IMG/VR virus record: IMGVR_UViG_2802429243_000002
DNA: 31,374 nucleotides
Source of the DNA: a virus
Taxonomy: Duplodnaviria > Heunggongvirae > Uroviricota > Caudoviricetes
Reading direction: 5' to 3' (one strand)
Shown: positions 2,591 to 30,684 of the stretch, in pieces
Position numbering within the stretch: the first letter of the stretch is position 1
Layout of the letters: each line of letters opens with the position of its first letter
Program-made: the position numbers and the translations under genes
Notes under the pieces: model-generated
The model's input: only the letters and a program-made list of their open reading frames with translations
Databases searched by the model: none
What the model was told of the DNA's origin: nothing

Positions 2591-5550
2591 TATGCAAGCC
2601 TCACAATATAGTTAAATGCGATGTTTTTGACGGTGTTTTCCGCGTTACCAGCAGCGTTAACGGTGATGGTGTGTCCATGTGAACCAATCGCAACGGAGTG
2701 CGTATGAGCACCAATACCGACAGTATGCGCGTGTGCACCTGCAGATGCTGCTGTGCCGGACAGTGAGTGGCTATGATTACCATCTGTACTGGTATTAGCT
2801 AACCACCCCGTAGACATACCTACTGAGCCTTGTACACCCCAGGTATTTTGACCTGAGCTTGTATAACCATATTGATAAGTATCTTTAAAAACACTGGGGT
2901 TAAATCGACGGCCATCTCTATGGCTGTGATTACCAGCTGCATTCGTGCTGCCACTTAAACTATGGGTATGCGCACCAGTGTTATTCGTGGATTTAGTGCC
3001 GTAATCAAACGACGATGTGGTTTTCGTCCCCAAATCCGTACTGGATGCGCTGGCGCTGTGGGTATGCGATTTAATGCCGTCCTGTTCCTGAGACAATACG
3101 GCCCGACCACTGGCAGGTTTGCCCTTAATCGTCCAGCCACGCATATCAGGGATCACGCCTGACGGATAAGCGGCTGCAAGTTTCGGGTATGCAGATTTGT
3201 CAAAAGTCTGCCCCTGCATCAGGGCATAGCCAGACGGAACGGTATCTGATGGCCACGGGATTGGTGCGCCAGGCGGATAAAACTGCTCTGATGGCGTATA
3301 GAGTGAATAAACTGTACCGTCCGTTAACCCTTCCGGCTTATTAGCAGAATATGCTGGTGACGTATGAATCGTCACGCTGGCATTACTGGTATAATCCCAT
3401 TGAATATTTACACCAGTCGCATAATTTCCGATTGCAACGTAAATATCGTAAGTATCACCAGATGTATTGACCCAGGCAAAATTTGTAAACCCTGTCGATG
3501 TGCGCTGCCATAAAGCACCAGTAATCCCCTTCGGATTACCATTACCTGCACGTAAAACAAGTTCAGATATACCTGCCTGTTGAGGTGACCCCACGTTAAA
3601 TCCAGCGCCACCAATCAACGTAATTGAAACAACAGAACTCGCCTGTGGCATGGTTACCGTTGCTAATTTGAACCAACCAGCACCACCGCTGAATGACATT
3701 GTTGTTGAGTTAAGCGTACCAATATCTTTCGGCGTCAGTGTTATATCCGCTGAAAGCGCCTTACCATTCACCTTACGGGCAGAAGGTACCCGACCATTCG
3801 CATTGTCATTAGCTGCTTTCACTGCTTTCGGTGTCGCAGCAAGCGTTTCAGATGTGCTGTTGGTTGCACTACTGAGCTGGACAATTCCTTTTTGTGCTGT
3901 CGTAGCGTCCTGTGCGGTGTATTTCCCGTTAGCCAGGTCATACGCGGCCTTAACGGCTTTTGGCGTTGCCGCCTGTGACTCGGAAGTGCTGTTAGTCGCA
4001 CTGCTGAGCTGAACTATCCCTTTCTGTGCTGTCGTTGCATCCTGTGCGGTGTATTTCCCGTTAGCCAGGTCATACGCGGCCTTAACGGCTTTTGGCGTTG
4101 CCGCCTGTGACTCGGAAGTGCTGTTGGTCGCACTGCTGAGCTGTACTATCCCCTTTTTCGTCGTGCTCGCATCCTCAAGCGCCACGGCGGATGCAATATC
4201 CTCTGCCCGTTTTGCTGCTGTCTCGGCGCGCGTTGCCGCGGATTCCGCCGTACTTTTGCTCTGTGCTGCCGCTGCCGCACTGCCAGCAGCCTCTGTCGCC
4301 TTCGTGGATGCCGTCGTGGCGCTGCCCCTCGCTGCTGACGCCTGTCTGGTCGCCTCATCTTTTGAAGCAGACGCAGATGATGCCGATGACGCCGCCGAAC
4401 TGGCGGACGATGCGGCAGCCGTTTTTGAGGATTCTGCGCTGGTTTCCGACGCTTTCGCGTTCGTTTCGGATGTCTTCGCTGCGGAAGCAGACCTCGCTGC
4501 TGCGCTGGCCTGTTCAGTGGCTTCGCCAGCCTTCGTTGTGGCTGTTGAAGCGGATGATGCGGCGCTTTCTGCCGATTTTCCGGCGGCGGTGGCACTGACT
4601 GCTGCCTCCTCTGCCTTAATGGACGCCTCACGGGCCGATGATGCAGCTGCTGTCTCAGAGTCTGCCGCAGCTGAGGCGCTCTGTTCCGCTGCCGTTTCAG
4701 AAGACCTGGCATTCGTCTCGGACGTTTTTGCCGCCTTCACGGAATTTCCTGCCGCCGTTGCCGAGGAGGCTGCACTGCTGGCGCTTGTGGAGGCGTTCGT
4801 TTCTGATGATTTTGCCGCCTCTTTGGAGGCCGCCGCATCTCTGGCTGAAGTGGCGGCTTCTGACGCTTTCGTCGTCGCAGTGGATGCAGAAGTGGCTGCT
4901 GATTTTTGTGACGCTGCAGCATTCGTTTCTGACGTTTTCGCCGCACCGGCACTGGTGGCCGCCGCGCTTTTTGAGGACTCTGCAGCGGCAGCACTTTTTG
5001 ATGCTTCAGTGGCCTTTGTTGATGCCGTTCCTGCGCTGGAAGACGCCTCCTGAGCCGAAGTCGCGGCCTGTCCGGCTGACGTGCTGGCTGCACGCGCTGA
5101 GCCTGCAGCATCAGTCGCATGGGTTGCCGCCTCACGGGCAGATGTGCCGGCATCACTGGCTGACTTCTTCGCGGCTGCCGTGTTCTGTGCCACCGCGGAC
5201 GCGTTACGCGTCACCTCTTCCACCATCAGTTCAAAACGGCGCAGAGCCTCCGGACGGGCATCATCCTCCGTCATGGCACCGAGAAAATCATTCAGCGTAC
5301 CGGGTCGGGAATCTTCATACACGGTGATGGTCCCGGCATGTGACGGCGGGAATCCTTCCACCAACAGAATAACGCTGTACTGACCGTACTCAACGTCCAT
5401 GCTGTAACGCCCGGCTTCATCCGGATTTTCTGAGGCCAGCGTGTTCACCACCACCGTGGTGCTGTTACGTTTTGCTTTCAGCTGGATTGTGCAGTTCTGT
5501 ACCGGTTTTCCTGTGCCGTCTTTCAGTACACCTGAAATCTTTACTGCCAT
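2590..5550 (-). CDS. stf: Side tail fiber protein (Stf)
   Basis: Probable ATG at 5550 ([12 protein letters not shown]...) preceded by a GGGGTGA SD-like sequence; the ORF track starts 2 codons upstream at a GTG. Long Ala/Ser/Thr-rich central region, three tandem 44-aa fiber repeats ([44 protein letters not shown]), C-terminal His-x-His-rich domain ending [11 protein letters not shown]. Confidence 0.9.
3777..4172. repeat. Tandem 132-bp coding repeat (about 3 copies) inside stf
   Basis: The motif CCTGTGCGGTGTATTTCCCGTTAGCCAGGTCATACGCGGCC recurs at 3909 and 4041 (period 132 bp), with a more diverged copy upstream. It encodes the 44-aa fiber repeat. Confidence 0.85.
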
Positions 5551-6284: not shown

Positions 6285-9200
6285 TCAACGAATACTGATG
6301 CCGGAAGCAGCTTTTTTGGTCACAATCACCGTACAGTCGGTGATATTGCCTGCCCCCTGATTGCCTTTCTGGAAAATCTTAAACTCCAGAGTGACGCTAC
6401 CACCACCACTAGGCATATCAATAACTGCACTGTAACTACCGGGAATGGCCCCTTTAGTTTCTCTGGATGCGATTAATACGCCGTTTTTGCGAACTTCAAA
6501 ACCATAACCCGTGTATCGCGTGCCTCCTGGGTTATTTCCGCTCCCCGGATCGTCATACGCTATACCGTTAAAAATAATGGGCGGAATAATAATCTGGCGG
6601 TCAAAGTTATGATCATCGCTGATGGTGACTGTAACCGTACCGTCTGGTGTTTCCGTGTTACCCCACGTACCGACTTTTTTCGGGAAGGCTTTTGATACAG
6701 CTTTAACGAAATCCCCTCTGACCTGGGTCGCCTCCAGCATGCCCTTAATCGTACAGTTCTGGTTAATCGTGACATTGTTGAGCGTTCCTGAGTTCGCATT
6801 CACACTGCCACTGATATCCGCATTTTTAGCGGTCAGCTTTCCGTCTGATGTCAGGGAAAATACCGGAGGACTGCCACCACTGGTAATGGTGGGGGCCGTC
6901 AGGCGCTTCAGGAACACGTCGTTCATGAATATCTGATTGCCCTGCGCCACAAACATCGGCGTTTCATTCCCGTTTGCCGGGTCAATAAATGCGATACGGT
7001 TAGCGGCAACCAGAAACTGACTCAGTTTGCCTTCCTCCGTGTCCTCCATGCTGAGGCCAATACCCGCGACATAATGTTTGCCGTCTTTGGTCTGCTCAAT
7101 TTTGACACCCCACATGGCATTCCATTTATCGTTGGCGTCCTTCCACTCTTTCGAAAACTCCTCCAGTCTGCTGGCGTTATCCTCCGTCAGCTCGACTTTT
7201 TCCAGCAGCTCCTTGCCGAGATGGGATTCGGTTATCTTGCCTTTGAAAAAATCCAGGTAACCTTCCGCATCATCGCTCGCCCGACCGACGGCCTCCACGA
7301 ATGCCGATTTGCCAACGGTGTTCACACTGCGGATATAAAAGTAATAATCATGGCCCGGTTTGATATTGATACTGGCGGCTATCCAGTACAGCGCCGTACC
7401 AAGATAGCGGGCTGTGGTTTCAACCTGCCTGATATCGGTAATCCGCTTTTCCGAGAACCAGAACTCAAACTGTACCGTCGGGTCATAAACGGCAAGATGC
7501 GGCGTGGCGGTTATCTGAAAATAGCCCGGCGTCAGCTCAATCCTCGACGGTGCTGCCGGTGCGGCAATCCGGAACGATACCGACGCCGGATCGCCCTGCT
7601 GCCCCCACGCATTTACCGCCCGGACTGTCAGCCTGTAGTTCCCCAGCGCCAGTTGCCTGAAGCGGTATGTGGTTTCCGTCGTCCGGGCCGTGCTGACCAG
7701 CCGCTCACTGCCGTCATCCGCTGTTACGGTCAGACGGAGCAGGAAGCTCACGCCCTTCACCACCTTCGGCGTGTCCCAGCGGGCCAGCACCTGGTATTCC
7801 CCACTGTCTGCGGTGACTTCGGCAGTCAGGTGCTGCACCGCTGGCGGCGTGACACCATTCACCGTGCCGCTCTGGTCGCCGTCAAAGTGCGCCCCGTTAT
7901 CCACGATGGCTTCTTTTTCCGGTACATGCTGCACGGCGGTGATGGCATACGTGCCGTCGTCGTTCTCACGGATACTCACGCAGCGGAACAGGCGCTGGCG
8001 CAGCGTCGGCAACTTCAGCCCCCATACGCTGTATCCGGCAACGCCGTCAGGAACACGGCTCACTTTTACCTTCACGCCGTCGGTGACGGACTGGACCTCC
8101 ACGCTGACCGGATTGCCACTTCCGTCAACCAGGCTTATCAGCGTGGTACCGGAGGATGGCAGCGTGATTTCACGGTCGAGCGTCAGCGTCCGGGTCTGGC
8201 TGTTTACCGCCAGCACGCGCCCGCCGGTGCTGATACCGGCATAGTCATCATCACAGATTTCAATGACATCGCCCGGCACATGGCGAAGCCCTTCTGCGCC
8301 CACGCTGAAGTCCACGGTCTGCGTTTCCAGCAGTTCTGTTTTAATCAGCCACAGCCCGGCGCGATGTGCCTGCCCCCGGCTGGTACAGCCAAAGGCATCC
8401 ATCTTCGTGACGTTACGACCGTAACGGGCAATGGCCTGCGTGTCCTCCACAAGCTCTGTCGCCGTCTCCCAGCCGTTATTCGGGTCAATCCAGTTCACCT
8501 CAACGGCATTATGGCGGTCCTTCAGGGCGCTGAAGCTGTAGCGGAACGGCGCGCCATCATCCGGCATCACCACATTACTGCGGTTATAGGTCCACACCTT
8601 ATCTGATGGTCGGTCCTGCACGAACGTCAGCGTCTGCCCGTTCCATACCGGCATACAGCGCATCGCCGAGCAGAAATCACTGAGCACATCCCACGCCTTG
8701 CGCTGTGTGGTCAGGTACGCATTACAGGTGATGCGCGGCTCCGTGCCGCCAAAGCCGTCCGGCACCGACTGGTCGCAGTACTGGCCGATGACATACAGCG
8801 CCCATTTATCCACGTCCGCCGCACCAAGACGTTTTCCCATGCCGTAGCGCGGATGGGTCAGCATATCCCACAGACACCAGGCCGGGTTGTTGCTGTATGC
8901 CGGTTTAAACGTTCCGTCCCAGATACCGCTGTATTGCCGCGTCTGCGGGTTATAATTCGACGGCACCTGCAGAATACGCCCGCGCAGATGATAATTACGG
9001 CTCACCTGCTGGCTGCCGAACTGCTCCGAATCCACCTGCACGCCGACCAGTGCCGTGTTCGGGTAGCTCTGTTTCACATCGATGATTTCGGTGTATGACG
9101 ACCAGAGCGTTTTGTTCTGCAGCTGCTCTGTGGTGCTGTCCGGCGTCATTCTGCGCATCCGGATATTAAACGGGCGCGGCGGCAGGTTATCCACCACCAC

Positions 9201-9698
9201 CGAGGCCAGATACTGCGAGGTGGTTTTGCCCTTAATGGTGATGTCTTTTTCCGTCACCCAGCCACCGTTACGCTGTATCTGAACCAGCAGGCGGACTTCC
9301 GACGGATTCCGGTCCCCCTTTGAGGTGGTTTCCACCAGTGCCTGCACACCGAAGGTAAAGCGCAGACGGTCGATGTTTGCAGACGTGATGGTCCGGGTAA
9401 TCGGCGTGTCGTACTTCACTTCCGTACCCAGCACCGTCTCGGAGCCGGAGGATTCAAATCCCTCCGGCGGTGTCTGCTCCTGCTCACCTGCCCGGAAAAC
9501 CACCGTGACACCGGAGATATTGGTATTCCCCTCACTGTCCAGCACTGGCGTACTGTTCAGCAGCACACTTTTTAATCCGTCCACCGGACCTTCAATCGGC
9601 CCTTCACTGATGGCATCGATCACACTCAGCAACTGCGTGGACTTCAGGTTGTCCCTCGCTTCACGCGGGGTATGTCCCTTACTGCTGCCTTTACCCAT
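6285..9698 (-). CDS. J: Tail tip host-specificity protein J (central tail fiber)
   Basis: 1137-aa ORF downstream of I; lambda gpJ-like length and architecture; SD GAGGA upstream of the ATG. Confidence 0.92.
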
Positions 9699-9758
9699 TC
9701 CTCACGCTCCATAAACGACAAAACCGCCCGCAGGCGGTTTCACACAAAACATTCTGCA

Positions 9759-10406
9759 TCAGCGACCAATCACCACAACCTGACCACCATCTCCTTCATC
9801 TGCCGTGCTGATCTCCTGAGAAATCACCCGTGACCCCACGCGCATTTCACCGTACAGAACCGGCAGAACATTGCCCTGGGCAACCATGTTATCCAGTGAG
9901 GAGAAATAGGTGTTCTGCTTACCGTTATCCGTTGTCTGTGTGCGGGGAGTTCTGGCTTTCGGTGCCAGCATCTGCGCCACACCGCCCAGGATCATACTGG
10001 CCCCTGCCGCATACATGCCCGATACAGCCGCGGCACCCAGCCAGCCCACAGGGTTCCACCATGCCACCGCAATCAGCGCCGCACCCAGCACTGCCTGAAA
10101 AACACCGCCACTTTTAGCTCCCGCCAGACGCGGCACAATGTGGATCACGGCACCATTTGCCAGCGGCTCATTAAGACGGGCAGATAATTCATTTTCTCCT
10201 GCATCACGCCCGACAATGCGCACCTGATACCAGCCCTCATTCAGTTTCTGACGAAACGCCGGGAGCTGTGTGGCCAGCGCCCGGATGGCTTCGGCCCCCG
10301 TTTTCACACGAAGGTCGATGCGGCGGCCAAATCGTTGCAAATCCCCGTAAAGGCAGATGCGCGCCATGCCCGGTGACGCCAGAGGGAGTGTGTGCGTCGC
10401 TGCCAT
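9759..10406 (-). CDS. I: Tail assembly protein I
   Basis: 215-aa ORF between K and J with a hydrophobic, Gly/Ala-rich C-terminal half typical of gpI. The start is uncertain: the ORF overlaps the K 3' end by about 100 nt, and an internal Met (MARICLYGD) is an alternative. Confidence 0.8.
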   Translation of the reverse strand: MAATHTLPLASPGMARICLYGDLQRFGRRIDLRVKTGAEAIRALATQLPAFRQKLNEGWYQVRIVGRDAGENELSARLNEPLANGAVIHIVPRLAGAKSGGVFQAVLGAALIAVAWWNPVGWLGAAAVSGMYAAGASMILGGVAQMLAPKARTPRTQTTDNGKQNTYFSSLDNMVAQGNVLPVLYGEMRVGSRVISQEISTADEGDGGQVVVIGR

Positions 10407-11047
10407 TTGTCGGTATACCTCTCTCGTTTGCTCAGTTGTTCAGGAATATGGTGCAGCAGCTCGCCATCACCACAGTAAATGGCGGCATGATTCGGCACCG
10501 ATGAACCAAAACAGCACAGCAGCACATCGCCCGGTTGTGCTGATGACAACGGCACCTGATACAGCCCTGTGGCCTCCAGATTATCCAGATAGAGATTCTG
10601 ACCGTGACGCCACCAGTCATCCTCGCGATGAAAATCCGGCATCTCAATCCCCGCCAGATGATAAGCATCCCGGAACAGCGTGTAACAGTCCGTCACCCCG
10701 TGCTCAAAGCGCCGCCCGGTGAGATGCGGCACACAGCGGAACTTATGAATCGTCCCCCGGCAGACCAGCCACCACGGCAAATCACTCTGCACCTGCAGCC
10801 GCCGGTCGGCCTCACTCAGCCAGGGCAGACCACCGGGGTGGCTGTGGACCAGCGCCACAATCTCACCCTGCATTTCTGCCTGCAGCCAGTCCTCCGGAGC
10901 CATCCGGAAATAATCCTCCGGCTCACCGGAAATATTCACGCAGGGAAAATATCTTTCCCCCTCCGGCGCTCTCACCACGAAGCCGCACGACTCCGCTGGC
11001 GCACATCGCCGGGCGTGCGCCAGAATCGCTGATTCTGTCTGTGTCAT
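10304..11047 (-). CDS. K: Tail assembly protein K (JAMM/MPN plus NlpC/P60-type domains)
   Basis: 247 aa. Contains the JAMM metalloprotease motif HSHPGGLPWLSEAD (HxH-x7-S-x2-D) and a Cys/His-containing C-terminal half. Positioned between L and I. Confidence 0.88.
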   Translation of the reverse strand: MTQTESAILAHARRCAPAESCGFVVRAPEGERYFPCVNISGEPEDYFRMAPEDWLQAEMQGEIVALVHSHPGGLPWLSEADRRLQVQSDLPWWLVCRGTIHKFRCVPHLTGRRFEHGVTDCYTLFRDAYHLAGIEMPDFHREDDWWRHGQNLYLDNLEATGLYQVPLSSAQPGDVLLCCFGSSVPNHAAIYCGDGELLHHIPEQLSKRERYTDKWQRRTHSLWRHRAWRASAFTGICNDLAAASTFV

Positions 11048-23670: not shown

Positions 23671-24981
23671 TTAAATCCGAAGTGATGTGACTCTTCCGGT
23701 CGGTTTGACAATAGGGAATTGCTTAACGATGAAATAACCTCCGGCATCATTCGGGTGATCATTGCCAGATTTTTTATCAGGCTCCCCCTTATCATCCCAG
23801 ACCTGTTGCTCCAGAGATTCGGCATATACCGGACAACGCTTCACATTAACTTTATAGCGACGCTCACCATTGGCATTGCAGAACATTGCATTCATTGAGT
23901 TAACGCGATCTTTTACTGGCGGGTTCGAGCTGTTCACCACAACGTTAAAACCTGCCTGCTTAAGCTGGGCTATATCCGTCGTACTTGCGTTACTTGATTT
24001 TCTGGAATCTCCGGAAGCATCTGGATAAATATAAATCTCCCTCACTTTCCGGTAATCATGCCCGTCATACAGCCAGAAGCGTTCTTTAATGAGGCGGATC
24101 ATATCCGGCGTATCGTAGGCATTGATGATTTCAGTTACCGCACATGGAAGCCCCAAACGCAGCACATGGACGATTCCCGCCATCTTTCCAACGTTAAAAT
24201 CCATCCCAATATAAATCGGCTCCCCTGGCTGCTCCACTTCTTCGCAATTATTCAGTTTCCGGTCAAACTGATGGTAAACAGTACCACTTGTCAGGTTAGT
24301 AAACCGTCCTAGAAGATAGGCTTTAATCAGCTCTGGAGGGTATGATTCAAGAAGTGAAGGAATGTAATCTGCTGGCAGGTTCTTTTCATTATCGAAAGTA
24401 GATGCCTGCACCAGACCATACAGTGAGGCCAGCTCTGTTTTTTCACGCACGGCTTTAACAAACTGCTCGTAGACAAATTTGAATCCTTCCGGCGTGGTTG
24501 TAACGTCAATACCGTTGCGAAGTCCATCAATCTTATAACGCATACGCGCAATTATCTTGCGCCACGCCGTTCTGGCTTTTTCCTTCGGCAAAATGTCCAG
24601 TTCATCCACCAGCGCATTACCAATTTTGAAACCGACGATCGTTTGTGGCTTCTCCATCGATCTGCAGATAGTGGTTCCCCGATACTGGCGTCCGTAATAA
24701 AAGTGAACCTCTTTATTTCCCTCATTAATTTTTACGTTCAATCCCCAGTCAGCAGCAACTTCTTCCACTGTAGGGTAAAAAATATCGCGAATTTGGGGAT
24801 ACGTTGGCGCAAAATATCCCTGATTTATACCTGGATGCTCCCAAATCCCCTTGCATATGCCGCCACACCCAACCCATGTTTTGCCCGAGCCAAAACCAGC
24901 AATATAGGCTTTAAATTTATGGGGCATTGAAAGAAATCGCGCCTGAGGCACATTAAGCGTCGGAGAGATCATCTTCATCAC
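23671..24981 (-). CDS. Terminase large subunit
   Basis: 436 aa with a Walker A-like motif (AGFGSGKT) near the N-terminus and an acidic nuclease-like C-terminal half. Overlaps the terS 3' end. Confidence 0.85.
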   Translation of the reverse strand: MMKMISPTLNVPQARFLSMPHKFKAYIAGFGSGKTWVGCGGICKGIWEHPGINQGYFAPTYPQIRDIFYPTVEEVAADWGLNVKINEGNKEVHFYYGRQYRGTTICRSMEKPQTIVGFKIGNALVDELDILPKEKARTAWRKIIARMRYKIDGLRNGIDVTTTPEGFKFVYEQFVKAVREKTELASLYGLVQASTFDNEKNLPADYIPSLLESYPPELIKAYLLGRFTNLTSGTVYHQFDRKLNNCEEVEQPGEPIYIGMDFNVGKMAGIVHVLRLGLPCAVTEIINAYDTPDMIRLIKERFWLYDGHDYRKVREIYIYPDASGDSRKSSNASTTDIAQLKQAGFNVVVNSSNPPVKDRVNSMNAMFCNANGERRYKVNVKRCPVYAESLEQQVWDDKGEPDKKSGNDHPNDAGGYFIVKQFPIVKPTGRVTSLRI

Positions 24982-26047
24982 TCCTTAATCTGGCATCAAC
25001 CACATTAATATTGATCGCCACAGGCTGGGGATGTTCATTATCCTCCACCGTTTCGATCTCTTTGCGCAGCTTCTGGTTTTCTATTCTGCGCCGTTCAATT
25101 TCCAGTTCCTGTAGCCGCTTATCTGCACATAATGCCCCGCCAGCAGAAAGCAAACGCAACAATTCACGCCGGGCGGCAGCCTTATCCTCCAGCAGGATCT
25201 CAACACCGTATTTTCCGAGCTTTGACCCTGCATATAATTGCCGCGCATCCCCATCAAGCAGTGTGGTATCAGCCATATAAAGCTGTCCTGTTCCCTCACC
25301 GCAGCACTTCGGGCAATCAGGATTGGGTATGGCGTTATCAACAAAGCCGAGGCCTCCATATTCCGGCTCGGGTTTACCATCTCTGGAGGCCTGTGCCGCA
25401 GCCTTATCGAATTCTGCAATATCACGCCACTGGTAGAGATGATTCTCGCCCCAGCAATAACGGCAGTTAACACGGCGAAATTGTGCCAACTGATTGGGGT
25501 CGGCCTGGACAATGGCCATCAACTGGCTCACCAGTAAATCCAGGTCTGCGGTATAGCGTTTCTGGTACTGATTGCGGAAGTAGCTGATAGCACTATAAAC
25601 CCTGGCATTTCTAAGCATACGGCTGGCGTTGCTGTTAGCTGTCGCACCTTGCCCCTCATAACCAGCCAGTCGGTATGCCTCTGTCGGCTTTTTCCCCTGA
25701 GCAACCAACATGGCGAATTTTGCCTGCTGGTCAGAAATACCGAATTCATCGGGGCAGAACGAAATTTCTTCCGTGTCCCCCTCAATCAGGAGTGCATCGG
25801 ATACAGCCTTTTTTTTCTGAGATTTTCCGTTCTGCCTTTGCGCAGTCTGCGCAGTTTTTTTTCGCGCACTTTTTTGCGCAGTTTTGCGCATTTCTTTCTG
25901 CGCATTTTTAGGAGTTTTTTTGATGTAACGACGAGCTGTTGCGTAGTTCAGTCCCCTTGCTTCACACCATGCCACCGGAGATATACCGGAGCGGGTGTAT
26001 TCAGCAATATACTCCTGCTGCAACGCCCCCCAGTCCGGTCTGCTCAT
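24953..26047 (-). CDS. Terminase small subunit (N-terminal HTH, Lys-rich linker, Terminase_2-like core)
   Basis: 364 aa. Central segment FGISDQQAKFAMLVAQGKKPTEAYRLAGYEG...NASRMLRNARV resembles the terminase small subunit family; located directly upstream of terL. Confidence 0.8.
   Translation of the reverse strand: MSRPDWGALQQEYIAEYTRSGISPVAWCEARGLNYATARRYIKKTPKNAQKEMRKTAQKSARKKTAQTAQRQNGKSQKKKAVSDALLIEGDTEEISFCPDEFGISDQQAKFAMLVAQGKKPTEAYRLAGYEGQGATANSNASRMLRNARVYSAISYFRNQYQKRYTADLDLLVSQLMAIVQADPNQLAQFRRVNCRYCWGENHLYQWRDIAEFDKAAAQASRDGKPEPEYGGLGFVDNAIPNPDCPKCCGEGTGQLYMADTTLLDGDARQLYAGSKLGKYGVEILLEDKAAARRELLRLLSAGGALCADKRLQELEIERRRIENQKLRKEIETVEDNEHPQPVAININVVDARLRSDEDDLSDA
25839..25905. repeat. 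Array of six TGCGCA-type palindromic hexamers in T-rich context inside terS (candidate pac site)
   Basis: TGCGCA at 25839, 25848, 25875, 25885, 25899 and a TCGCGCA variant near 25862, spaced 9-15 bp apart, each preceded by a T-run. Confidence 0.5.
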
Positions 26048-26050
26048 CAG

Positions 26051-26302
26051 TTAGTCCTGATTTTTATCCACCCTGAGTAGTTCGCGCAGAGCAAAGGCAT
26101 CCCCTTTTCTGGCAAGCTTAAACAATGCCGCTCGTAACTCGGCTTCACCTTTCGCTCTGCCCTTACGGATGGCCGCATAAAAATCTGTCATTGCTTCCCG
26201 ATTTTCTTTCAGTCGGTTCAGATCAACATCCAGAACGTCAGCGATTTGTTGTGCAGTCATCCGGCACGCTGCCAGAGACTCGACTTTCGAATACGGAATC
26301 AT
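26051..26302 (-). CDS. Small putative HTH DNA-binding protein (Nu1-like N-terminal pattern)
   Basis: 83 aa with a GGGGGTGA SD-like sequence upstream. MTAQQIADVLDVDLNRL resembles winged-HTH packaging proteins. The start is uncertain because of a 65-nt overlap with the upstream gene. Confidence 0.6.
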   Translation of the reverse strand: MIPYSKVESLAACRMTAQQIADVLDVDLNRLKENREAMTDFYAAIRKGRAKGEAELRAALFKLARKGDAFALRELLRVDKNQD

Positions 26303-27170
26303 TTGTCACCCCCATTGATATGCAGGGTGTCTTCTTCCTGTATTTTTCGTGAAGGATTTTTACTGCAGCGTTGTTCCAGGTGACCTGATGGTGAATGCGT
26401 TTATGGCTGGCACCCATCAGTGAGATTTTTACGCACGACGGCGAATACATGACGGAGTAAAAACTTTTAACGTAGGTTCCGGAATCCAGATACAGCTCGG
26501 TCATTCCGCCGCTGTTTTTCTGCGTCTGTTTCTGCCCTAACTGGACAGCACCGATCGTCATAAACAATTCACCACAGCGACCGAGATTCGTGTACGTATT
26601 CACATCCTCGTTAATGCGCCCCATGAATGAGAACGGTCGATCAACCGAACAGATAAAGCTGTTCATTGCCTTGCGTTTCACCCACGAAGCATGGCCGCCA
26701 TTGTCACCAAGAAAATCCCCGCCCTGCGACATAGCGATGGAAAGCGCGGGTATTGATTCGTAATACGCCAGCATTTCAGAAAGGATCGCATCCAGTTTCC
26801 TTATCGGGAAATAGGCCTGGTCATAGTTGCGATCCACCCGAAACTGGAACTCGTGATAATCATCATCGAGCTGAATGAAGTATTTACACCCGACCAGTTT
26901 TGCCAGGTCGAAACAGGCATTACGGGCGTAAAAAATTGAGCGGCGGTCACCAAAATTATCGGCTTCGTCAAAACGACTGGCAATATCGGCTTTGGAAAAT
27001 ACCAGCACCTGTTCACCAAATTCAGCCATGTACTGATGCCGTGTCTTATCTTCATCATCAACAACGATAAAAATTTTCCCGGTATAGCCAGCACGACGCA
27101 ACGTCCGGTAAGTCAGAACTTTGTCCGGTCGCCCGTGAGTCAGAATAAAGGCGCAAAAATCATCACGCAT
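26238..27170 (-). CDS. GT-A-fold (family 2-like) glycosyltransferase-like protein
   Basis: Probable ATG at 27170 preceded by a strong AGGAGGAGGAGG SD. Three motifs in GT2-like order and spacing: ILTHGRPD (cf. IPTYNRP), VVDDEDKT (cf. DDGSTD) and QLDDDY (DxD). No obvious transmembrane segment. Confidence 0.6.
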   Translation of the reverse strand: MRDDFCAFILTHGRPDKVLTYRTLRRAGYTGKIFIVVDDEDKTRHQYMAEFGEQVLVFSKADIASRFDEADNFGDRRSIFYARNACFDLAKLVGCKYFIQLDDDYHEFQFRVDRNYDQAYFPIRKLDAILSEMLAYYESIPALSIAMSQGGDFLGDNGGHASWVKRKAMNSFICSVDRPFSFMGRINEDVNTYTNLGRCGELFMTIGAVQLGQKQTQKNSGGMTELYLDSGTYVKSFYSVMYSPSCVKISLMGASHKRIHHQVTWNNAAVKILHEKYRKKTPCISMGVTNDSVFESRVSGSVPDDCTTNR

Positions 27171-27957
27171 ATTCCTCCTCCTCCTCCCCGCCATGCATGA
27201 TCTCCACCATGCGCTGCGTCATTCGGACAAATCCATTTTCAATAGCCTGCTGATAATCAATGATCACCAGCGCCGACTCCTCGAAAAGGCACTGAATTTC
27301 AGCGGGGGCATGAGCGTAATAGTCCGCAATTCTGCTGAAATTAAACACTGTGTGACGTTCTGCCGCACACAGGAGGAATTTCTCAATATCAGGATCAAGG
27401 GACGCCGAACGTATCCGGCTGATCAGCTCCTGAGTTTTCGTATCGTCGTAAAGTTCACTGATATCCGGTTTACCGCCCGACGGCTCATAAACAGGCGTAT
27501 CAATTTTCGTCGTATACGGCTCCTCCTCATTTCCTGTACCGGGCAAAACATCCGTCAACAGTTCATCAATTTCTGTCGGGATGAAGCCTGTCAGGGAGAC
27601 ATCAAAATCAGCATTGATTAGGTCCGACAGCTCCATCCGCAACAGATCTTCATCCCAGCCAGCATTCATCGGCAGGCGATTATCTGCCAGGCGGTACGCC
27701 TTTTTCTGCTCATCCGTCAGGCCAGACAGAACAATGACCGGAACAGAATCCATTTTGAGCATTTCAGCCGCCATAACACGACCGTGACCCGCAATAATTT
27801 CGCCCTTTTCGTCAATCAGCACCGGATTAGTCCAGCCGAATTGCTTAATACTTTCTACCAGTTGTGCCACCTGCTCAGTACTGTGCGTCCTGGCGTTGTG
27901 CGCATACGGTGACAATTCTTGTAATGGGCGATAGACTATCTTTAATTTCTCGCTCAT
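27163..27957 (-). CDS. ParB-like nuclease (ParB N-terminal / sulfiredoxin-fold) domain protein
   Basis: 264 aa. N-terminal region (LQELSPYAHNARTHSTEQVAQLVESIKQFGWTNPVLID...IIAGHGRVMAA) matches the ParB N-terminal domain pattern; acidic GGEEEEEYA C-terminus. Confidence 0.8.
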   Translation of the reverse strand: MSEKLKIVYRPLQELSPYAHNARTHSTEQVAQLVESIKQFGWTNPVLIDEKGEIIAGHGRVMAAEMLKMDSVPVIVLSGLTDEQKKAYRLADNRLPMNAGWDEDLLRMELSDLINADFDVSLTGFIPTEIDELLTDVLPGTGNEEEPYTTKIDTPVYEPSGGKPDISELYDDTKTQELISRIRSASLDPDIEKFLLCAAERHTVFNFSRIADYYAHAPAEIQCLFEESALVIIDYQQAIENGFVRMTQRMVEIMHGGEEEEEYA

Positions 27958-28094
27958 ACAGCCTTGCTTTATGAATAAAACGCACCCCAGCAGCCAGTGC
28001 TACTGGGGGCGGAGGTGTTGCTGGTAAAGTTAGGTATTGGATCAATGAGTGAGTCAACATAATATTAAACTCACAATTATAAATCAGCCATATA

Positions 28095-29552
28095 TTAGGA
28101 GCGCCAAAAAAAACCTGAAAACAATATAATAACAGGATAAATTTCAAGGCGACCAAGAATCATAGCTATGCACATTAAATATTTTGCAATGTCATTAAGC
28201 ACTCCGAATGACGATGCAGTAGCCCCAAAACCTAATCCCATATTATTAATACATGCAGCCACTGTTGCAAATGATGTAAGAAAATCATATCCCATACCAT
28301 TTAACACCAGTATAAAAAACACCGTGAAGAGAGTATAAAGAAAAAAGAAACTCCATACAGACCTCATTACACGATCTGTAACTATCTTCCCTCCTACATT
28401 TACACTCAACAATGCTCTGGGATGAGAAAGTTGATTTATCTCGTGTTTGCTTTGTTTGAAAAGTATAAGAAATCGAAGTGACTTAATTCCACCACAGGTT
28501 GAACCGATACATCCCCCAAAGAAACTTGACAACAGCAAAAACACTATCGTGTGCGTGGGCCAGTTTGCATAATCCTGCGTAGCTAAACCATTATCAGTGA
28601 GCATGGAGCTGGCAAGAAAAAACGAATGAATAAAACTTCCATGCAAGTCATACATACCTATATGCCAGACCTGGAAAGAGGTAACAATGATCACCCCTAA
28701 GGCTATTAACAGAAAGAAACGAAGTTCAATATCTCTGATTAAAGGTTTTATCGTTTTTCTGCTAATAACAATATACCAAAGAGTGAAGTTGAAAGCCGAT
28801 AGCAGGGAAAAAGAACCAGCCACCAGCTCAACCAAATAGTTATTAAAATATCCGATACTCTCGCTATGAGTTGAGAAACCACCAAGCGAAACTGTGGAAA
28901 TCCCGTGACAAATAGCATCAAACAAAGGCATTCCTGCAAGTCTATAACAGACAATACAAGCAATACCTAATAAAGAATAAGTTATCCACAGTGTCCGTGA
29001 CGTATCGGCCAGGCGGGGAGTGAGTTTGTCATCCTTAAATGGCCCCGGCATTTCTGACTGATAAAGCTTTGCACCACCAATACCCAATAATGGCAATACT
29101 GCAACCGCCAGAACAATAACTCCTAAACCACCTATAAAATTTAACTGTGACCGATAGTACAAATATGCCCGAGGTAATGAACTAACATCATCAATTACAG
29201 TTGCTCCTGTTGTTGTTATTCCAGAAACCCCTTCAAACAGAGCATCAATGAACGTTAAATTAAGTTCTGAGTCAATCCATAAAGGGAATGCACTAATAAC
29301 AGAAAACAAAATCCAAAACATTACAATTATAATAAACCCATCACGGGTACGTAATTGAATGCCAGATTTCTTAGTTGTATACCACGCTCCGCCACCAATG
29401 CAAAAAAATATAACGAAAGTTATAAAGAAAACGAACAGGCTTTTTTCTTTATAAAACAATGCTACAACCATTGGTGGCAACATTGAAAGACTATAGAGCC
29501 AAACCAGGAACCCACACATATGAGTAACAACTCTTACATGAGATGTATTCAT
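28095..29552 (-). CDS. trkG: TrkH/TrkG-family potassium uptake protein (prophage moron)
   Basis: Probable ATG at 29552 (MNTSHVRVV...), giving 485 aa; the ORF track starts 6 codons upstream at TTG. Multiple transmembrane segments, Trk-family selectivity-filter-like glycine motifs. Markedly AT-rich compared with neighbouring phage genes. Confidence 0.85.
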   Translation of the reverse strand: MNTSHVRVVTHMCGFLVWLYSLSMLPPMVVALFYKEKSLFVFFITFVIFFCIGGGAWYTTKKSGIQLRTRDGFIIIVMFWILFSVISAFPLWIDSELNLTFIDALFEGVSGITTTGATVIDDVSSLPRAYLYYRSQLNFIGGLGVIVLAVAVLPLLGIGGAKLYQSEMPGPFKDDKLTPRLADTSRTLWITYSLLGIACIVCYRLAGMPLFDAICHGISTVSLGGFSTHSESIGYFNNYLVELVAGSFSLLSAFNFTLWYIVISRKTIKPLIRDIELRFFLLIALGVIIVTSFQVWHIGMYDLHGSFIHSFFLASSMLTDNGLATQDYANWPTHTIVFLLLSSFFGGCIGSTCGGIKSLRFLILFKQSKHEINQLSHPRALLSVNVGGKIVTDRVMRSVWSFFFLYTLFTVFFILVLNGMGYDFLTSFATVAACINNMGLGFGATASSFGVLNDIAKYLMCIAMILGRLEIYPVIILFSGFFWRS

Positions 29553-29689
29553 ATCTAAATATTCTTTCAATTATAACCACCTTGCTGCAATATTATGATT
29601 ATACTGTATAAAATTTAACTCCTCTTAGATCTTACTTCACTGTTCCTTATGAAACAATCATCAAAATGAATCATATTGTAGTTAAGATT

Positions 29690-30154
29690 TTACTTTAAAC
29701 ACTGTTCGGTTATGTATTGCTGAGCACCTTCAAGTTGGGCCTGCATCATTACCAGTCGTTCCCGGAGGGTGAAATAATCCCGTTCAGCGGTGTCTGCCAG
29801 TCTGGGGGAGACTGCATTATCCACGCTGGAGGTGGCGGTGGCTTCACGCACTGACTGACAGACTGCTTTGATGCGCAACCGACGACGACCAGCGGCAACA
29901 TCATCACGCAGAGCATCATTTTCAGCTTTCGCATCAGCTAACTCCTTCAGGTATTTTGCATCGAGTGCAGCAACATCACGCTGGCGTATCTGCATGTCAG
30001 TAATGATTGCGGTCGCCTGGTTGAGTTTTTCCGTCACATTATCGCGTTGCGCTTTGTAGGTAATGGCATTATCACGGTAATGATTAACAGCCCATGACAG
30101 GCAGACGATGATGCAGATAACCAGAGCATAAATAATCACGGCAACTCTGCTCAC
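29690..30154 (-). CDS. Rz: Rz-type i-spanin
   Basis: N-terminal TM segment ([18 protein letters not shown]) then a charged coiled-coil-like periplasmic domain. Probable GTG start at 30154 overlapping the endolysin stop (GTGA); the track starts 5 codons upstream at TTG. Confidence 0.85.
29749..29934 (-). CDS. Rz1: Rz1-type o-spanin lipoprotein, nested in Rz in the +1 frame
   Basis: Lies entirely within Rz in a different frame. Signal peptide with lipobox VVGC and a proline-rich mature part (KPPPPPAW). Confidence 0.85.
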
Positions 30155-30684
30155 TGCTCTATCCCCCAACAGGCTAATGCGCTCTCCTGATCACGACGAA
30201 TAACCTGACCGTAACAGTTATTTGAACGAAGGCGGCAATCGCGCCCCCTGTCCTTAATCCACCAGCGAATCGCCTCGCAGGCACCTTTACGATCACCTGC
30301 ATTCAGCCGCTTATAAAATGTCGACGGAAAACACTTAGCGGGGCCAATGTTATAGGGACAAAATGACGCGATACCCGCTTTTTGTGGTTCGGTCAGTGTT
30401 ACTTTAATATTGCGATCCACCCATGCCAGCGCCTTATCACGCTCAATGGCATTAACCTGATCGCATTTTTCCTTCGTCAGTGTCATGCCCGGAATAACAG
30501 GTTTACCATCTACTATCGTGGCACCGCGACAGATGGTCCATATGCCGGAACCATCGCGGTATGCCGTAGTGTGGTTACCCTCTTTTTCATCCAGAAACTG
30601 GTCAAGTATCTCAGGAGCAGATGCGCCTGCTCCAATCAGCGCCAGAACGGCCGCTGACAGGCCGTATTTGGTTTTTGCGTTCAT
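30151..30684 (-). CDS. R: SAR-type endolysin (glycoside hydrolase family 24 lysozyme)
   Basis: 177 aa with a weakly hydrophobic Gly/Ala-rich N-terminal segment ([18 protein letters not shown]) and the E-x8-D-x5-T lysozyme catalytic triad ([16 protein letters not shown]). Confidence 0.88.

What the first reader, a model, noticed from the sequence alone, without database searches (positions are those of the whole stretch)
26238..27957. ParB-like nuclease-domain protein paired with a soluble GT-A glycosyltransferase-like protein between the lysis and packaging genes
Two adjacent, translationally coupled genes sit at the position where lambdoid phages carry accessory cargo: a ParB N-terminal-domain protein with an acidic tail and a roughly 310-aa protein with three GT-A/GT2-like motifs (ILTHGRPD, VVDDEDKT, QLDDDY). 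The glycosyltransferase-like protein has no membrane anchor and no gtrA/gtrC partners, so it does not look like a serotype-converting GtrB. A nucleic-acid-binding ParB-fold protein beside a sugar-transferase fold, directly upstream of DNA-packaging genes, suggests a DNA modification or anti-restriction/anti-defence function. I do not recognise this pairing as a described system. The fold assignment is from motif reading only.
Basis: partly seen in the sequence, partly recalled or inferred. Interest (0 to 1): 0.7.

Follow-up and report, generated by a model that had tools for sequence, protein, structure and literature searches.

The report
ParB-partnered phage glycosyltransferase cassette
Two overlapping late genes of an E. 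coli Rac-type prophage encode a sugar-transferring enzyme of the phage DNA-glycosylating family and its dedicated partner protein, a pair found in viruses of many bacterial phyla and of archaea, and what it puts the sugar on is unknown because these phages lack the usual modified-base target.

Summary
ORFs 27163-27957(-) and 26238-27170(-) overlap by 8 nt and lie between lysis/trkG and the terminase genes of an intact Rac-type prophage.

The 310-aa protein is a soluble GT-A enzyme of Pfam TAGT (PF20691, E 6e-35), the family of the T2/T6 DNA glucosyltransferase. The 264-aa protein has a ParB N-terminal domain, an acidic linker and an undescribed C-terminal domain (no Pfam family, no similar fold in the PDB).

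That C-terminal domain is the constant partner, not ParB_N:
- 77 of 77 TAGT loci from different species with room upstream carry it upstream.
- 80 of 80 viral contigs found through it carry the TAGT downstream.

Where ParB_N is missing, the partner usually starts with MKQxNLFG, which resembles a beta-clamp-binding motif (63/77, against 0/50 ParB-fused). Three such cassettes sit next to a clamp gene.

No TET/JBP, hydroxymethylase or conserved third gene accompanies the pair.

Best reading, about 0.5: a DNA-tethered glycosyltransferase that modifies phage DNA, with the acceptor unknown. The main rival is protein glycosylation. This is a new variant of a known kind, and none of the function has been tested.

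The parts
27553..27957 (-). ParB/Srx N-terminal (NTP-binding type) domain of the partner protein, aa 1-135. The Box II-like G57-H-G-R60 motif lies at 27778-27789.
   Evidence: Pfam ParB_N E 9e-7. phrog_498 'DNA methyltransferase' N-terminal region E 9e-51. PADLOC MTase_II model positions 13-151, E 1.7e-38. 45-55% identical to the ParB_N of phage DNA adenine methyltransferase fusions. G57 is kept in 98%, R60 in 89% and N93 in 98% of 63 fused homologues.
27466..27552 (-). Acidic linker and conserved extended 'arm' (aa 136-164). The motif P-Y148-T-T-K-I-D-T-P155-V-Y157-E-P lies at 27466-27519.
   Evidence: Y148 and Y157 are kept in 100% and P155 in 99% of 144 cassettes. The arm has low pLDDT in the monomer model despite this invariance, which suggests an interface or acceptor peptide (inference).
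27190..27465 (-). C-terminal 'GT-partner' domain (aa 165-256): a helical core followed by the invariant S-A-L-V-I-I-D segment.
27163..27189 (-). Acidic tail codons (EEEEEYA), the ParB stop codon, the GGAGG-repeat Shine-Dalgarno-like run, and the 8-nt overlap with the GT start codon (ATG at 27168-27170).
   Evidence: Read directly from the sequence. The start agrees with RefSeq annotation of identical loci.
26238..27170 (-). TAGT-family GT-A glycosyltransferase, 310 aa. R14 lies in ILTHGRPD, the DxD motif D102-D104 at 26859-26867 and N187-E-D189 in RINEDVN. There is a conserved but flexible loop TQ..GGMT..Y...GT (aa 216-232). About 25 aa at the C-terminus are an E. coli-specific extension.
   Evidence: Pfam PF20691 E 6e-35. 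phrog_842 E 1.5e-103. AF2 pLDDT 76, with all significant Foldseek PDB hits being GT-A enzymes. 59 positions are at least 93% identical across 144 sequences. No transmembrane segment.
26051..26302 (-). Small ORF (83 aa; annotated as 69 aa in RefSeq) between the GT and TerS. It is related to small-terminase sequences and probably belongs to the packaging module, not to the cassette.
   Evidence: phrog_309 'terminase small subunit' E 8e-23. Homologues sit at position +1 in 20 of 22 loci, 21 of them ParB-fused.
27985..28008 (-). Terminator-like hairpin with a T-run after the trkG moron, 27 nt upstream of the ParB start codon.
   Evidence: Consensus scan: 10-bp stem with 7 GC pairs. It is a pattern match only.

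Best explanation
The two genes form a self-contained two-protein cassette.

The enzyme is a soluble GT-A glycosyltransferase of the TAGT family. It uses a nucleotide-sugar donor through its DxD site.

The upstream protein is its dedicated adaptor or activator. A conserved C-terminal domain and a Tyr-rich arm bind or activate the enzyme. An exchangeable N-terminal module places the complex on DNA.
- In this prophage the N-terminal module is a ParB-type NTP-binding domain, of the same subfamily that phages fuse to DNA methyltransferases.
- In many other phages it is a short peptide that looks like a beta-sliding-clamp-binding motif.

The complex is made from the late operon together with terminase. 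It would glycosylate replicated phage DNA before or during packaging, so that progeny genomes are less visible to restriction and other nucleic-acid-targeting defences in the next host.

What is shown: family membership, fold, intact catalytic motifs, strict two-way co-occurrence, co-evolution, the exchangeable N-terminal module, and DNA-metabolism neighbourhoods.

What is inferred: physical interaction of the two proteins, tethering to DNA or clamp, DNA as acceptor, and a protective role.

The acceptor is unknown. No 5hmC or 5hmU source accompanies the pair, so it cannot be the classical one unless something outside the phage supplies it.
For: 1. Enzyme identity.
- Pfam TAGT E 6e-35.
- GT-A fold.
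- R14, the DDD motif, NED and HH are 97-100% conserved in 144 sequences.
- TAGT-family and other phage GT-A enzymes act on DNA in T2/T6 and in 5mYOX clusters.

2. Obligate pairing.
- Of the 77 TAGT loci from different species with room upstream, 73 carry the C-domain gene directly upstream and 4 within 2.5 kb.
- All 80 viral contigs retrieved through the C-domain carry the TAGT downstream.
- The pair is present in phages of Lactobacillus, Nocardia, Vibrio and Porphyromonas and in a Haloarcula virus.
- It is absent from the T4-like phage Aeh1.
- Mantel r = 0.60 between the two distance matrices, n = 143, p <= 0.001.

3. DNA tethering.
- The ParB_N here is closest to that of phage DNA methyltransferase fusions.
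- Adaptors without ParB_N carry Q..[LMIV]F at the N-terminus in 63 of 77 cases, against 0 of 50 ParB-fused adaptors and 2 of 1108 neighbouring proteins.
- This matches the beta-binding consensus QLxLF (PMC4549789).
- Three such cassettes are followed directly by a DNA pol III beta homologue.

4. Gene neighbourhoods.
- Neighbours are terminases of at least 5 Pfam families, or replication genes such as DnaB, primase-helicase and SNF2.

5. Precedents.
- A ParB-like protein is required by phage T-dioxygenase 5mYOX176 on dsDNA.
- T4 alpha-GT binds the gp45 clamp.

6. Sugar chemistry.
- UDP-galactopyranose mutase, epimerase/dehydratase, nucleotidyltransferase and RmlD genes are next to the cassette in a few loci.
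- A second TAGT paralogue is adjacent in 8 loci.

7. Charge.
- The enzyme is basic (pI 8.0-8.6) and the adaptor acidic (pI 4.5).
Against: - No acceptor is known. Characterised relatives all make O-glycosides on a hydroxymethyl group, on a sugar, or (GREB1) on protein Ser/Thr.
- Canonical DNA offers no such hydroxyl group.
- The complete Rac-type prophage and the complete phage c5 genome encode no TET/JBP, C5-methyltransferase or hydroxymethylase.
- No third gene is conserved within 5 genes on either side.
- The adaptor has no recognisable DNA-binding domain and is strongly acidic.
- The clamp-binding reading rests on a short motif only.
- Loci were retrieved with patterns derived from this clade and capped at 80 per scan. 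The 100% co-occurrence therefore describes the clade, not all TAGTs.
- No multimer model or experiment supports a physical complex.
Confidence: 0.5

Rival explanations
1. Protein glycosylation. The GT puts a sugar on a protein hydroxyl group. Candidates are the adaptor's own invariant tyrosines (Y148 and Y157 in the arm), the sliding clamp or replisome, or a packaging protein. The adaptor would be a substrate or a substrate-presenting subunit, not a DNA tether.
For: - GREB1, a TAGT-domain protein, O-GlcNAcylates a protein (PMC7968844).
- Structural neighbours include protein- and peptide-glycosylating GT-A enzymes: SunS, ColGalT1, GalNAc-T2 and the Tyr-self-glucosylating glycogenin.
- Two tyrosines in a flexible arm are 100% conserved.
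- This reading avoids the need for a hydroxylated base, which these phages do not make.
Against: - The N-terminal module is either the ParB_N subtype otherwise fused to DNA methyltransferases or a clamp-binding-like peptide. Both point to DNA as the site of action.
- A host-protein target fits poorly with hosts spanning archaea, Gram-positive and Gram-negative bacteria.
- The Ser/Thr after YEP that first looked like an acceptor is not conserved.
- Characterised phage members of the family act on DNA.
Confidence: 0.22
2. Classical TAGT role. The enzyme glycosylates 5hmC or 5hmU, or extends a sugar already on such a base. The precursor base would be supplied by genes elsewhere in the phage, by the host, or by a co-resident element.
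For: This is the activity known for the family (T2/T6 enzyme and 5mYOX-associated GT-A enzymes). Only 4-6 kb either side was examined for most loci.
Against: - Complete genomes of the Rac-type prophage and of phage c5, 31.8 kb, carry no TET/JBP, C5-methyltransferase or dCMP/dUMP hydroxymethylase.
- None of these families appears in the 25 commonest Pfam families (of about 50-60 matched) among 421 neighbouring proteins.
- No conserved third gene was found.
- E. coli DNA has no 5hmC or 5hmU (established knowledge).
- This clade is only 23-27% identical to the T4-like TAGTs, which lack the adaptor.
Confidence: 0.06
3. The cassette acts for the lysogen or in host takeover, not to modify progeny DNA. 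It might mark or block incoming or host DNA, target the host clamp to shut off host replication, or consume nucleotide-sugars.
For: The gene lies beside a moron (trkG) in a region where lambdoid prophages carry cargo. Clamp-binding peptides are also used by factors that inhibit the clamp (general knowledge).
Against: - No PADLOC defence model matches the GT; the only hit for the partner is an MTase_II model on its ParB_N domain.
- The cassette is also present in virulent phages such as c5 and in 190-kb Vibrio phages.
- In this prophage it lies inside the late operon, downstream of a terminator-like hairpin, with no strong promoter match of its own.
- Its position just ahead of terminase holds across at least 5 terminase families.
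Confidence: 0.08
4. The pairing is only positional. The ParB-like protein works in packaging, partition or as a nuclease, and the GT independently modifies a surface polysaccharide (serotype conversion).
For: ParB-like genes are common next to terminase genes. Prophage glycosyltransferases often modify O-antigen.
Against: - Two-way co-occurrence is 100% in 157 loci, with overlapping reading frames.
- The two proteins co-evolve.
- The partner domain persists where ParB_N and terminase adjacency are lost.
- There is no transmembrane segment, no gtrA or gtrC, and no ParA.
Confidence: 0.03

Closest known systems
T2/T6 beta-glucosyl-HMC-alpha-glucosyltransferase and other TAGT (PF20691) phage enzymes
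   Same: Same Pfam family (E 6e-35), GT-A fold and DxD site, and phage-encoded.
   Different: Only 23-27% identical to the T4-like members. No alpha- or beta-GT and no hmC pathway in the genome. It always has the adaptor gene, which the T4-like phage Aeh1 lacks. PMC13216743 notes 288 of 753 phages with 'solitary' TAGTs of undefined function. This cassette is probably part of that set.
5mYOX(TET/JBP)-associated GT-A glycosyltransferases (Pyle et al. 2024, bioRxiv 10.1101/2023.12.21.572611)
   Same: GT-A fold with the R...DDD...ED active-site pattern. Sequential GT paralogues occur in some loci. Nucleotide-sugar genes are nearby in some loci.
   Different: Those enzymes act on 5hmC made by a neighbouring methyltransferase plus dioxygenase. 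Here neither is present. That paper set aside the roughly 65% of GT contigs without such neighbours as less likely to be DNA-modifying.
ParB176/5mYOX176: ParB-dependent phage thymine dioxygenase (PMC13229309)
   Same: A phage ParB-like protein with an NTP-binding N-domain, a linker and a C-terminal domain, without a DNA-binding HTH. It is encoded next to a DNA-modifying enzyme and is specific for its cognate partner.
   Different: The partner enzyme is a dioxygenase, not a glycosyltransferase. Whether the two C-terminal domains are related was not tested. Here ParB_N can be replaced by a clamp-binding-like peptide.
Phage ParB_N-DNA methyltransferase fusions (N6_N4_Mtase, Methyltransf_23; PMC12704722)
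   Same: The ParB_N of this protein is 45-55% identical to theirs and matches their profiles at E 9e-51 and 1.7e-38. They occupy the same genomic slot ahead of the packaging genes.
   Different: In the fusions the catalytic domain is covalently attached. Here an adaptor domain recruits a separately encoded enzyme. One locus (L117) may combine a methyltransferase-like region, ParB_N and the adaptor in one protein, but the Pfam scores for the methyltransferase part are below threshold.
T4 alpha-glucosyltransferase bound to the gp45 sliding clamp
   Same: A DNA glycosyltransferase coupled to a sliding clamp. The stand-alone adaptors carry a clamp-binding-like peptide and sometimes sit beside a clamp gene.
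   Different: T4 alpha-GT has a GT-B fold, binds the clamp directly and acts on hmC. Clamp binding here is inferred from a motif and is mediated by a separate adaptor.
GREB1 and the trypanosome base-J glucosyltransferase (JGT)
   Same: Eukaryotic members or relatives of the same GT-A lineage. RefSeq now names the E. coli protein 'GREB1-related protein'.
   Different: GREB1 glycosylates a protein. JGT glycosylates hmU made by JBP. Neither has this adaptor.

Membership tests
TAGT (PF20691) glycosyltransferases | Significant match to the family profile above the curated threshold | tested here: met
   121.5 bits against a cut-off of 27.5, E 6e-35, covering profile positions 4-205 of 205. phrog_842 E 1.5e-103.
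TAGT (PF20691) glycosyltransferases | GT-A fold with a DxD metal/nucleotide-sugar site | tested here: met
   In the AF2 model all 29 Foldseek PDB hits with E <= 1e-3 are nucleotide-sugar enzymes, nearly all GT-A glycosyltransferases, with TM about 0.4-0.47. D103 and D104 are 100% conserved, R14 99% and D189 100% in 144 sequences.
TAGT (PF20691) glycosyltransferases | Genomic association with TET/JBP, or with another source of 5-hydroxymethylpyrimidine | tested here: not met
   None is annotated in the whole prophage or in complete phage c5. None appears in the listed commonest Pfam families among 421 neighbouring proteins. No conserved third gene was found. This is a contextual feature that gave the family its name, not a sequence criterion.
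TAGT (PF20691) glycosyltransferases | Transfers sugar to hmC/hmU, or to a sugar on them, in DNA | not testable with these tools
   Needs nucleoside LC-MS or enzyme assays.
ParB/Srx N-terminal domain (ParB-CTPase fold) proteins | Match to ParB_N with the Box II GxxR and the conserved Asn residues | tested here: met
   29.3 bits against a cut-off of 26.3. G57 98%, R60 89%, N21 95% and N93 98% in 63 fused homologues.
Canonical partition ParB (ParABS) | HTH DNA-binding domain, known C-terminal dimerisation domain, ParA partner and ParA-binding motif | tested here: not met
   TIGR00180 gives 38 bits against a cut-off of 58.45. There is no HTH or ParB C-terminal Pfam match. No ParA is annotated in the prophage. 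parS sites were not searched.
ParB/Srx N-terminal domain (ParB-CTPase fold) proteins | NTP binding/hydrolysis, and clamp formation on DNA | not testable with these tools
   Nucleotide specificity cannot be predicted from sequence, according to PMC12704722.
GtrB-type serotype-converting glucosyltransferases | Membrane-anchored GT2 enzyme with gtrA flippase and gtrC partners | tested here: not met
   No hydrophobic segment. No gtrA or gtrC in the prophage. The profile hit is to TAGT only.
Beta-sliding-clamp-binding proteins (QLxLF motif) | Terminal Q-L-x-L-F-like peptide in a disordered region | tested here: not met
   The window's own protein has no such motif, and 0 of 50 ParB-fused adaptors do. 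The motif is present in 63 of 77 ParB-less homologues. It is therefore a property of sister cassettes. Actual binding was not tested.
Known anti-phage defence systems (PADLOC-DB 2.0) | Match to a defence-system protein model | tested here: not met
   No hit for the GT. The only hit for the partner is the ParB_N part of an MTase_II model.

The most novel reading that the evidence does not exclude
The cassette glycosylates ordinary, non-hydroxymethylated DNA (a canonical base, the backbone or DNA ends) while riding on a sliding clamp. The clamp would be the ParB-type one it carries or the host beta clamp it binds. That would be a new chemical class of DNA modification. It would be widespread in temperate and virulent phages of bacteria and archaea and present in Rac-type prophages of about 30% of complete E. 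coli genomes.
Probability: 0.3. Interest if true: 0.9.

Novelty: new variant of a known kind. Interest (0 to 1): 0.72.

Why it matters
Phage DNA glycosylation is a classic anti-restriction strategy, but it is known only where the phage first makes a hydroxymethylated (or hydroxylated) pyrimidine. Recent surveys put aside or left unexplained the many phage GT-A/TAGT genes that lack such a pathway.

This analysis shows that a large share of them form a tight two-gene cassette with a previously undescribed partner domain. The partner's N-terminus is either a ParB NTPase or a clamp-binding-like peptide.

If the acceptor is DNA, this is a new modification chemistry and a new use of sliding clamps to spread a modification along a genome. 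It would bear on restriction, CRISPR and nanopore or PacBio base-calling of prophage DNA. If the acceptor is a protein, it is a widespread phage protein-glycosylation system linked to replication and packaging.

Either way the question can be tested directly in E. coli, because intact copies exist in ordinary strains and K-12 is a natural deletion.

Tried and rejected
- **Ser/Thr acceptor idea.** In the first five-sequence alignment the residue after the invariant Y-E-P was Ser or Thr and looked like a possible acceptor. In the 93-sequence alignment that position is mostly K/N/S/H, so I rejected it. The two invariant tyrosines remain candidates.
- **Natural adaptor-GT fusion.** None appeared among the 150 best representatives, whose maximum length is 346 aa. 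One 161-aa fragment (P0127) probably reflects a frameshift.
- **Hidden third component.** I clustered 1108 proteins from within 5 genes either side of 143 cassettes, looking for example for an unannotated hydroxylase. Only terminase, small-terminase-like and replication proteins recur, and none is universal.
- **Defence-system membership.** No match to any defence system; the only PADLOC hit is the ParB_N part of an MTase_II model. NCBIfam has no model for the GT.
- **An artefact of my own.** Seven viral contigs first scored as lacking the TAGT. My ORF caller had extended the TAGT ORF upstream beyond my overlap limit. After checking coordinates, all have it adjacent.
- **Literature.** The paper that defined TAGT (Iyer et al. 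2013, Nucleic Acids Res) is not in the library. I cannot exclude that it already noted a ParB-TAGT neighbourhood. PMC13229309 cites it only for the general idea that ParB 'directs' modification enzymes. Searches for ynaK, GREB1-related, PF20691 and TAGT terms found no functional study of this cassette.
Full report
**1. What is in the window**

The window is the late region of an intact Rac-type lambdoid prophage of E. coli, with all genes on the minus strand. The gene order is endolysin and Rz (29690-30684), trkG (28095-29570), a 264-aa ParB-like ORF (27163-27957), a glycosyltransferase-like ORF (26238-27194 as the longest ORF), an 83-aa ORF, TerS, TerL, portal, head and tail genes.

A 2.2-kb query spanning the pair matches 1619 of 5426 complete E. 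coli genomes. In 867 of them at least 80% of the query is covered. In strain EC93 the full prophage runs from intR and recET through ydaS/T, lysis genes, trkG, ParB, GT and terminase to the tail genes.

K-12 keeps only an 87-aa stump of the ParB gene, named ynaK. A deletion joins it to ydaY, so K-12 lacks the partner domain, the GT and the head genes.

The likely GT start is the ATG at 27170, giving 310 aa. This is the start RefSeq uses. It overlaps the ParB stop codon by 8 nt. It is preceded by GGAGGAGGAGGAGGA, which is also the coding sequence for the acidic tail of ParB.

A terminator-like hairpin follows the low-GC trkG moron 27 nt before the ParB start. The pair has no strong promoter match of its own. 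It is therefore most simply read as part of the late operon (inference).

**2. What the two proteins are**

The 310-aa protein is a clear member of Pfam TAGT, the 'TET-associated glycosyltransferase' family (PF20691, E 6e-35, 121.5 bits against a cut-off of 27.5). It also matches phrog_842 at E 1.5e-103. RefSeq names it either 'hypothetical' or 'GREB1-related protein'.

An AlphaFold2 model has mean pLDDT 76. Foldseek matched essentially only GT-A glycosyltransferases in the PDB, at E about 2e-4 and TM 0.4-0.47. The top hit is the nucleoside glycosyltransferase AvpGT.

Across 144 non-redundant homologues, 59 positions are at least 93% identical. These include R14, D38/D41, the DxD motif (D103 and D104 at 100%), N187-E-D189, Q213, Q217 and H260-H261. 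This is an active enzyme under strong constraint.

The 264-aa protein has three parts:
- **A ParB N-terminal domain (aa 1-135).** Pfam gives E 9e-7. Its closest relatives are the ParB_N domains that phages fuse to DNA adenine or N4/N6 methyltransferases. It matches phrog_498 at E 9e-51 and the PADLOC MTase_II model at E 1.7e-38. It is 45-55% identical to those proteins by tblastn.
- **An acidic linker** ending in the invariant motif Y148-T-x-K-x-x-x-P155-x-Y157-E-P.

The protein is very acidic (pI 4.46, net charge about -26) and has no recognisable DNA-binding domain. The enzyme is basic, with pI 8.0-8.6.

**3. The pairing is real, and the constant partner is the C-terminal domain**

Homologues 39-47% identical to the GT occur in Lactobacillus phages phi jlb1 and c5, Nocardia phage NTR1, the archaeal virus HHTV-2 and 190-kb Vibrio phages. 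A 27%-identical homologue occurs in Porphyromonas phages.

- In phi jlb1, c5, NTR1 and the Porphyromonas phage the order is ParB-like gene, GT with overlapping frames, then the terminase genes.
- In HHTV-2 eight small genes separate the pair from terminase.
- The Vibrio phage has a stand-alone partner gene, and a helicase gene lies two genes downstream of the GT, after a 90-nt ORF.

The partner proteins align over their whole length at 33-42% identity, C-terminal domain included.

I then tested co-occurrence in both directions:
- **From the GT.** In 80 loci from 80 different species, 77 had room upstream of the GT. These span Proteobacteria, Bacteroidota, Firmicutes, Chlorobi, Planctomycetes, Verrucomicrobia, Saccharibacteria, Spirochaetes, Actinobacteria and an archaeon. 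Of the 77, 73 carry the C-domain gene directly upstream, 4 carry it within 2.5 kb, and none lacks it.
- **From the partner.** All 80 viral contigs retrieved through the C-domain carry the GT downstream. It is adjacent in 75, and separated by a 0.7-1 kb insert in 5.

Pairwise distances of the two proteins correlate across 143 cassettes, with Mantel r = 0.60 and p <= 0.001. The T4-like phage Aeh1, whose TAGT belongs to the hmC system, has no partner gene.

The C-domain family has 1438 representative clusters at 50% identity. In the 150 best representatives it is at the C-terminus. The proteins are either about 130-170 aa or about 240-310 aa long.

The short form lacks ParB_N altogether. No ParB_N was detected in 62 of the 80 viral contigs, nor in 8 of the genome loci.

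The sampling has limits. The scans used peptide patterns taken from this clade and returned at most 80 loci each. The figures therefore describe this clade, not every TAGT.

**4. An exchangeable N-terminal module**

The short adaptors nearly all begin with M-K-Q-[ITFVL]-[NST]-[LM]-F-G. This holds for 52 of 55 non-redundant adaptors in the viral contigs and 59 of 104 in the protein set.

Counted uniformly, Q..[LMIV]F lies just upstream of the arm in 63 of 77 ParB-less adaptors. It occurs in 0 of 50 ParB-fused adaptors and at the N-terminus of 2 of 1108 neighbouring proteins. The motif matches the bacterial beta-sliding-clamp-binding consensus Q-L-x-L-F (PMC4549789).

In three ParB-less cassettes from different species (L115, L118, L155), the gene directly after the GT encodes a 360-363-aa DNA polymerase III beta homologue.

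The ParB-less cassettes lie among replication genes: DnaB, primase-helicase, SNF2/DEAD helicases and DnaA-C-like proteins. The ParB-fused cassettes lie directly ahead of terminase genes of at least five different Pfam families.

ParB N-domains are the NTP-gated module that turns ParB proteins into DNA-sliding clamps. This is established knowledge, summarised in PMC13229309 and PMC12704722. Both versions of the adaptor therefore look like ways of putting the enzyme on a DNA-encircling clamp. That step is my inference. No binding was tested.

**5. What is missing**

No TET/JBP dioxygenase, C5-cytosine methyltransferase or dCMP/dUMP hydroxymethylase is annotated in the whole Rac-type prophage. 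None is annotated in the complete 31.8-kb genome of phage c5.

None appears among the commonest Pfam families of 421 neighbouring proteins, although only the top 25 families per scan are listed. Clustering of 1108 neighbours found no third conserved gene.

A few loci carry nucleotide-sugar genes next to the cassette. These are UDP-galactopyranose mutase, an epimerase/dehydratase, a nucleotidyltransferase and RmlD. Eight loci carry a second TAGT paralogue. Both observations fit a sugar-transferring, sometimes glycan-building, function.

**6. Most likely mechanism, and how sure**

I commit to the following at about 0.5:
- The adaptor's C-terminal domain and Tyr-rich arm bind and probably activate the GT.
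- The adaptor's N-terminal module tethers the complex to DNA. Here that module is ParB_N.
- The enzyme transfers a sugar from an NDP-sugar to phage DNA late in infection, before packaging.
- The modification protects progeny DNA.

The precedents are close:
- A ParB-like protein with the same overall layout, and no DNA-binding domain, is required for a phage thymine dioxygenase to act on dsDNA (PMC13229309).
- ParB_N-methyltransferase fusions are common in prophages (PMC12704722).
- T4 alpha-glucosyltransferase binds the gp45 clamp (PMC13216743).

The weak point is chemistry. Every characterised relative makes an O-glycoside on a hydroxymethyl group, on a sugar or on a protein Ser/Thr. Ordinary DNA has no such hydroxyl group. 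Either the enzyme does something chemically new on DNA, or the acceptor is not DNA.

The main rival, at about 0.2, is protein glycosylation. The acceptor could be the adaptor's two invariant tyrosines or a clamp, replisome or packaging protein. GREB1 and the protein-modifying structural neighbours support this reading. The remaining rivals are a hidden hmC/hmU source, a lysogen-benefit or takeover function, and mere positional linkage. All are less likely for the reasons given in their entries.

**7. Comparison with what is known, and novelty**

The enzyme is a member of a known family, and the ParB theme is known. I found three things described nowhere in the literature I could search:
- The partner domain itself.
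- Its strict coupling to one TAGT clade across bacteria and archaea.
- The alternation between a ParB domain and a clamp-binding-like peptide.

Two recent papers explicitly leave such 'solitary' GTs unexplained. I could not read Iyer et al. 2013, which defined TAGT and may have noted a ParB neighbourhood.

I rate this a new variant of a known kind. If the acceptor proves to be canonical DNA it would be categorically new.

Noticed in passing
window 28095-29570 (-), hairpin 27985-28008: trkG, a Trk-type K+ transporter (Pfam TrkH, E 1e-144), sits as a low-GC moron (37.7% against about 49% for its neighbours) between the lysis genes and the ParB gene. It is followed by its own terminator-like hairpin.
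   Followed up: partly
L251 (E. coli K-12 MG1655, 1425377-1425980): K-12 ynaK is an 87-aa N-terminal remnant of this ParB-like gene. It is joined by a deletion directly to ydaY, so K-12 lacks the partner domain, the GT, the terminase and the head genes and is a natural null background. In several other strains the ParB gene is split by an IS3 element or truncated.
   Followed up: partly
window 26238-26315 (-): The E. coli GT has a C-terminal extension of about 25 aa (KKTPCISMGVTNDSVFESRVSGSVPDDCTTNR) that most homologues lack; they end at about 285-290 aa. The extension has low pLDDT and overlaps the start of the next ORF.
   Followed up: no
window 26051-26302 (-) and 24953-26047 (-): The small ORF after the GT matches part of a small-terminase PHROG (phrog_309, E 8e-23). 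It recurs at position +1 in 20 ParB-fused loci. The 364-aa TerS matches Pfam Terminase_2 only over residues 122-316. The small terminase may be split or two-part here.
   Followed up: no
L117:189-1736: A 516-aa protein in an Ignavibacteria MAG appears to combine a SAM-methyltransferase-like region (Pfam scores below threshold, E about 5e-4), ParB_N and the GT-partner domain, followed by the TAGT gene. One scaffold may carry two modifying activities.
   Followed up: no
L115, L155 and six other loci: A second TAGT paralogue lies directly beside the cassette in 8 loci. L155 also has a second, weaker partner-domain ORF at 4460-4801. This may be a tandem duplication or a sequential pair of glycosyltransferases.
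   Followed up: no
Lactobacillus phage Ld25A (KJ564036.1, 366-500): The gene annotated as a 'ParB nuclease' contains a segment 56% identical to residues 235-279 of the GT (H62/H63). This looks like a deletion that fused the partner gene to the GT 3' end, so the cassette has apparently been lost in that phage.
   Followed up: no
L166:6229-8316: In one ParB-less cassette (a Bacteroidales MAG) the gene after the GT encodes a 696-aa protein whose C-terminal end matches a PLP-dependent Orn/Arg decarboxylase domain (E 4e-10). This is an unusual neighbour for a phage replication module.
   Followed up: no
window 3500-5500 and 7000-11000: GC content rises to 0.55-0.62 in the tail-fibre and gpJ-like genes, against about 0.47 elsewhere. 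Many long spurious ORFs appear on the opposite strand in these stretches. This fits mosaic origin of the tail genes.
   Followed up: no
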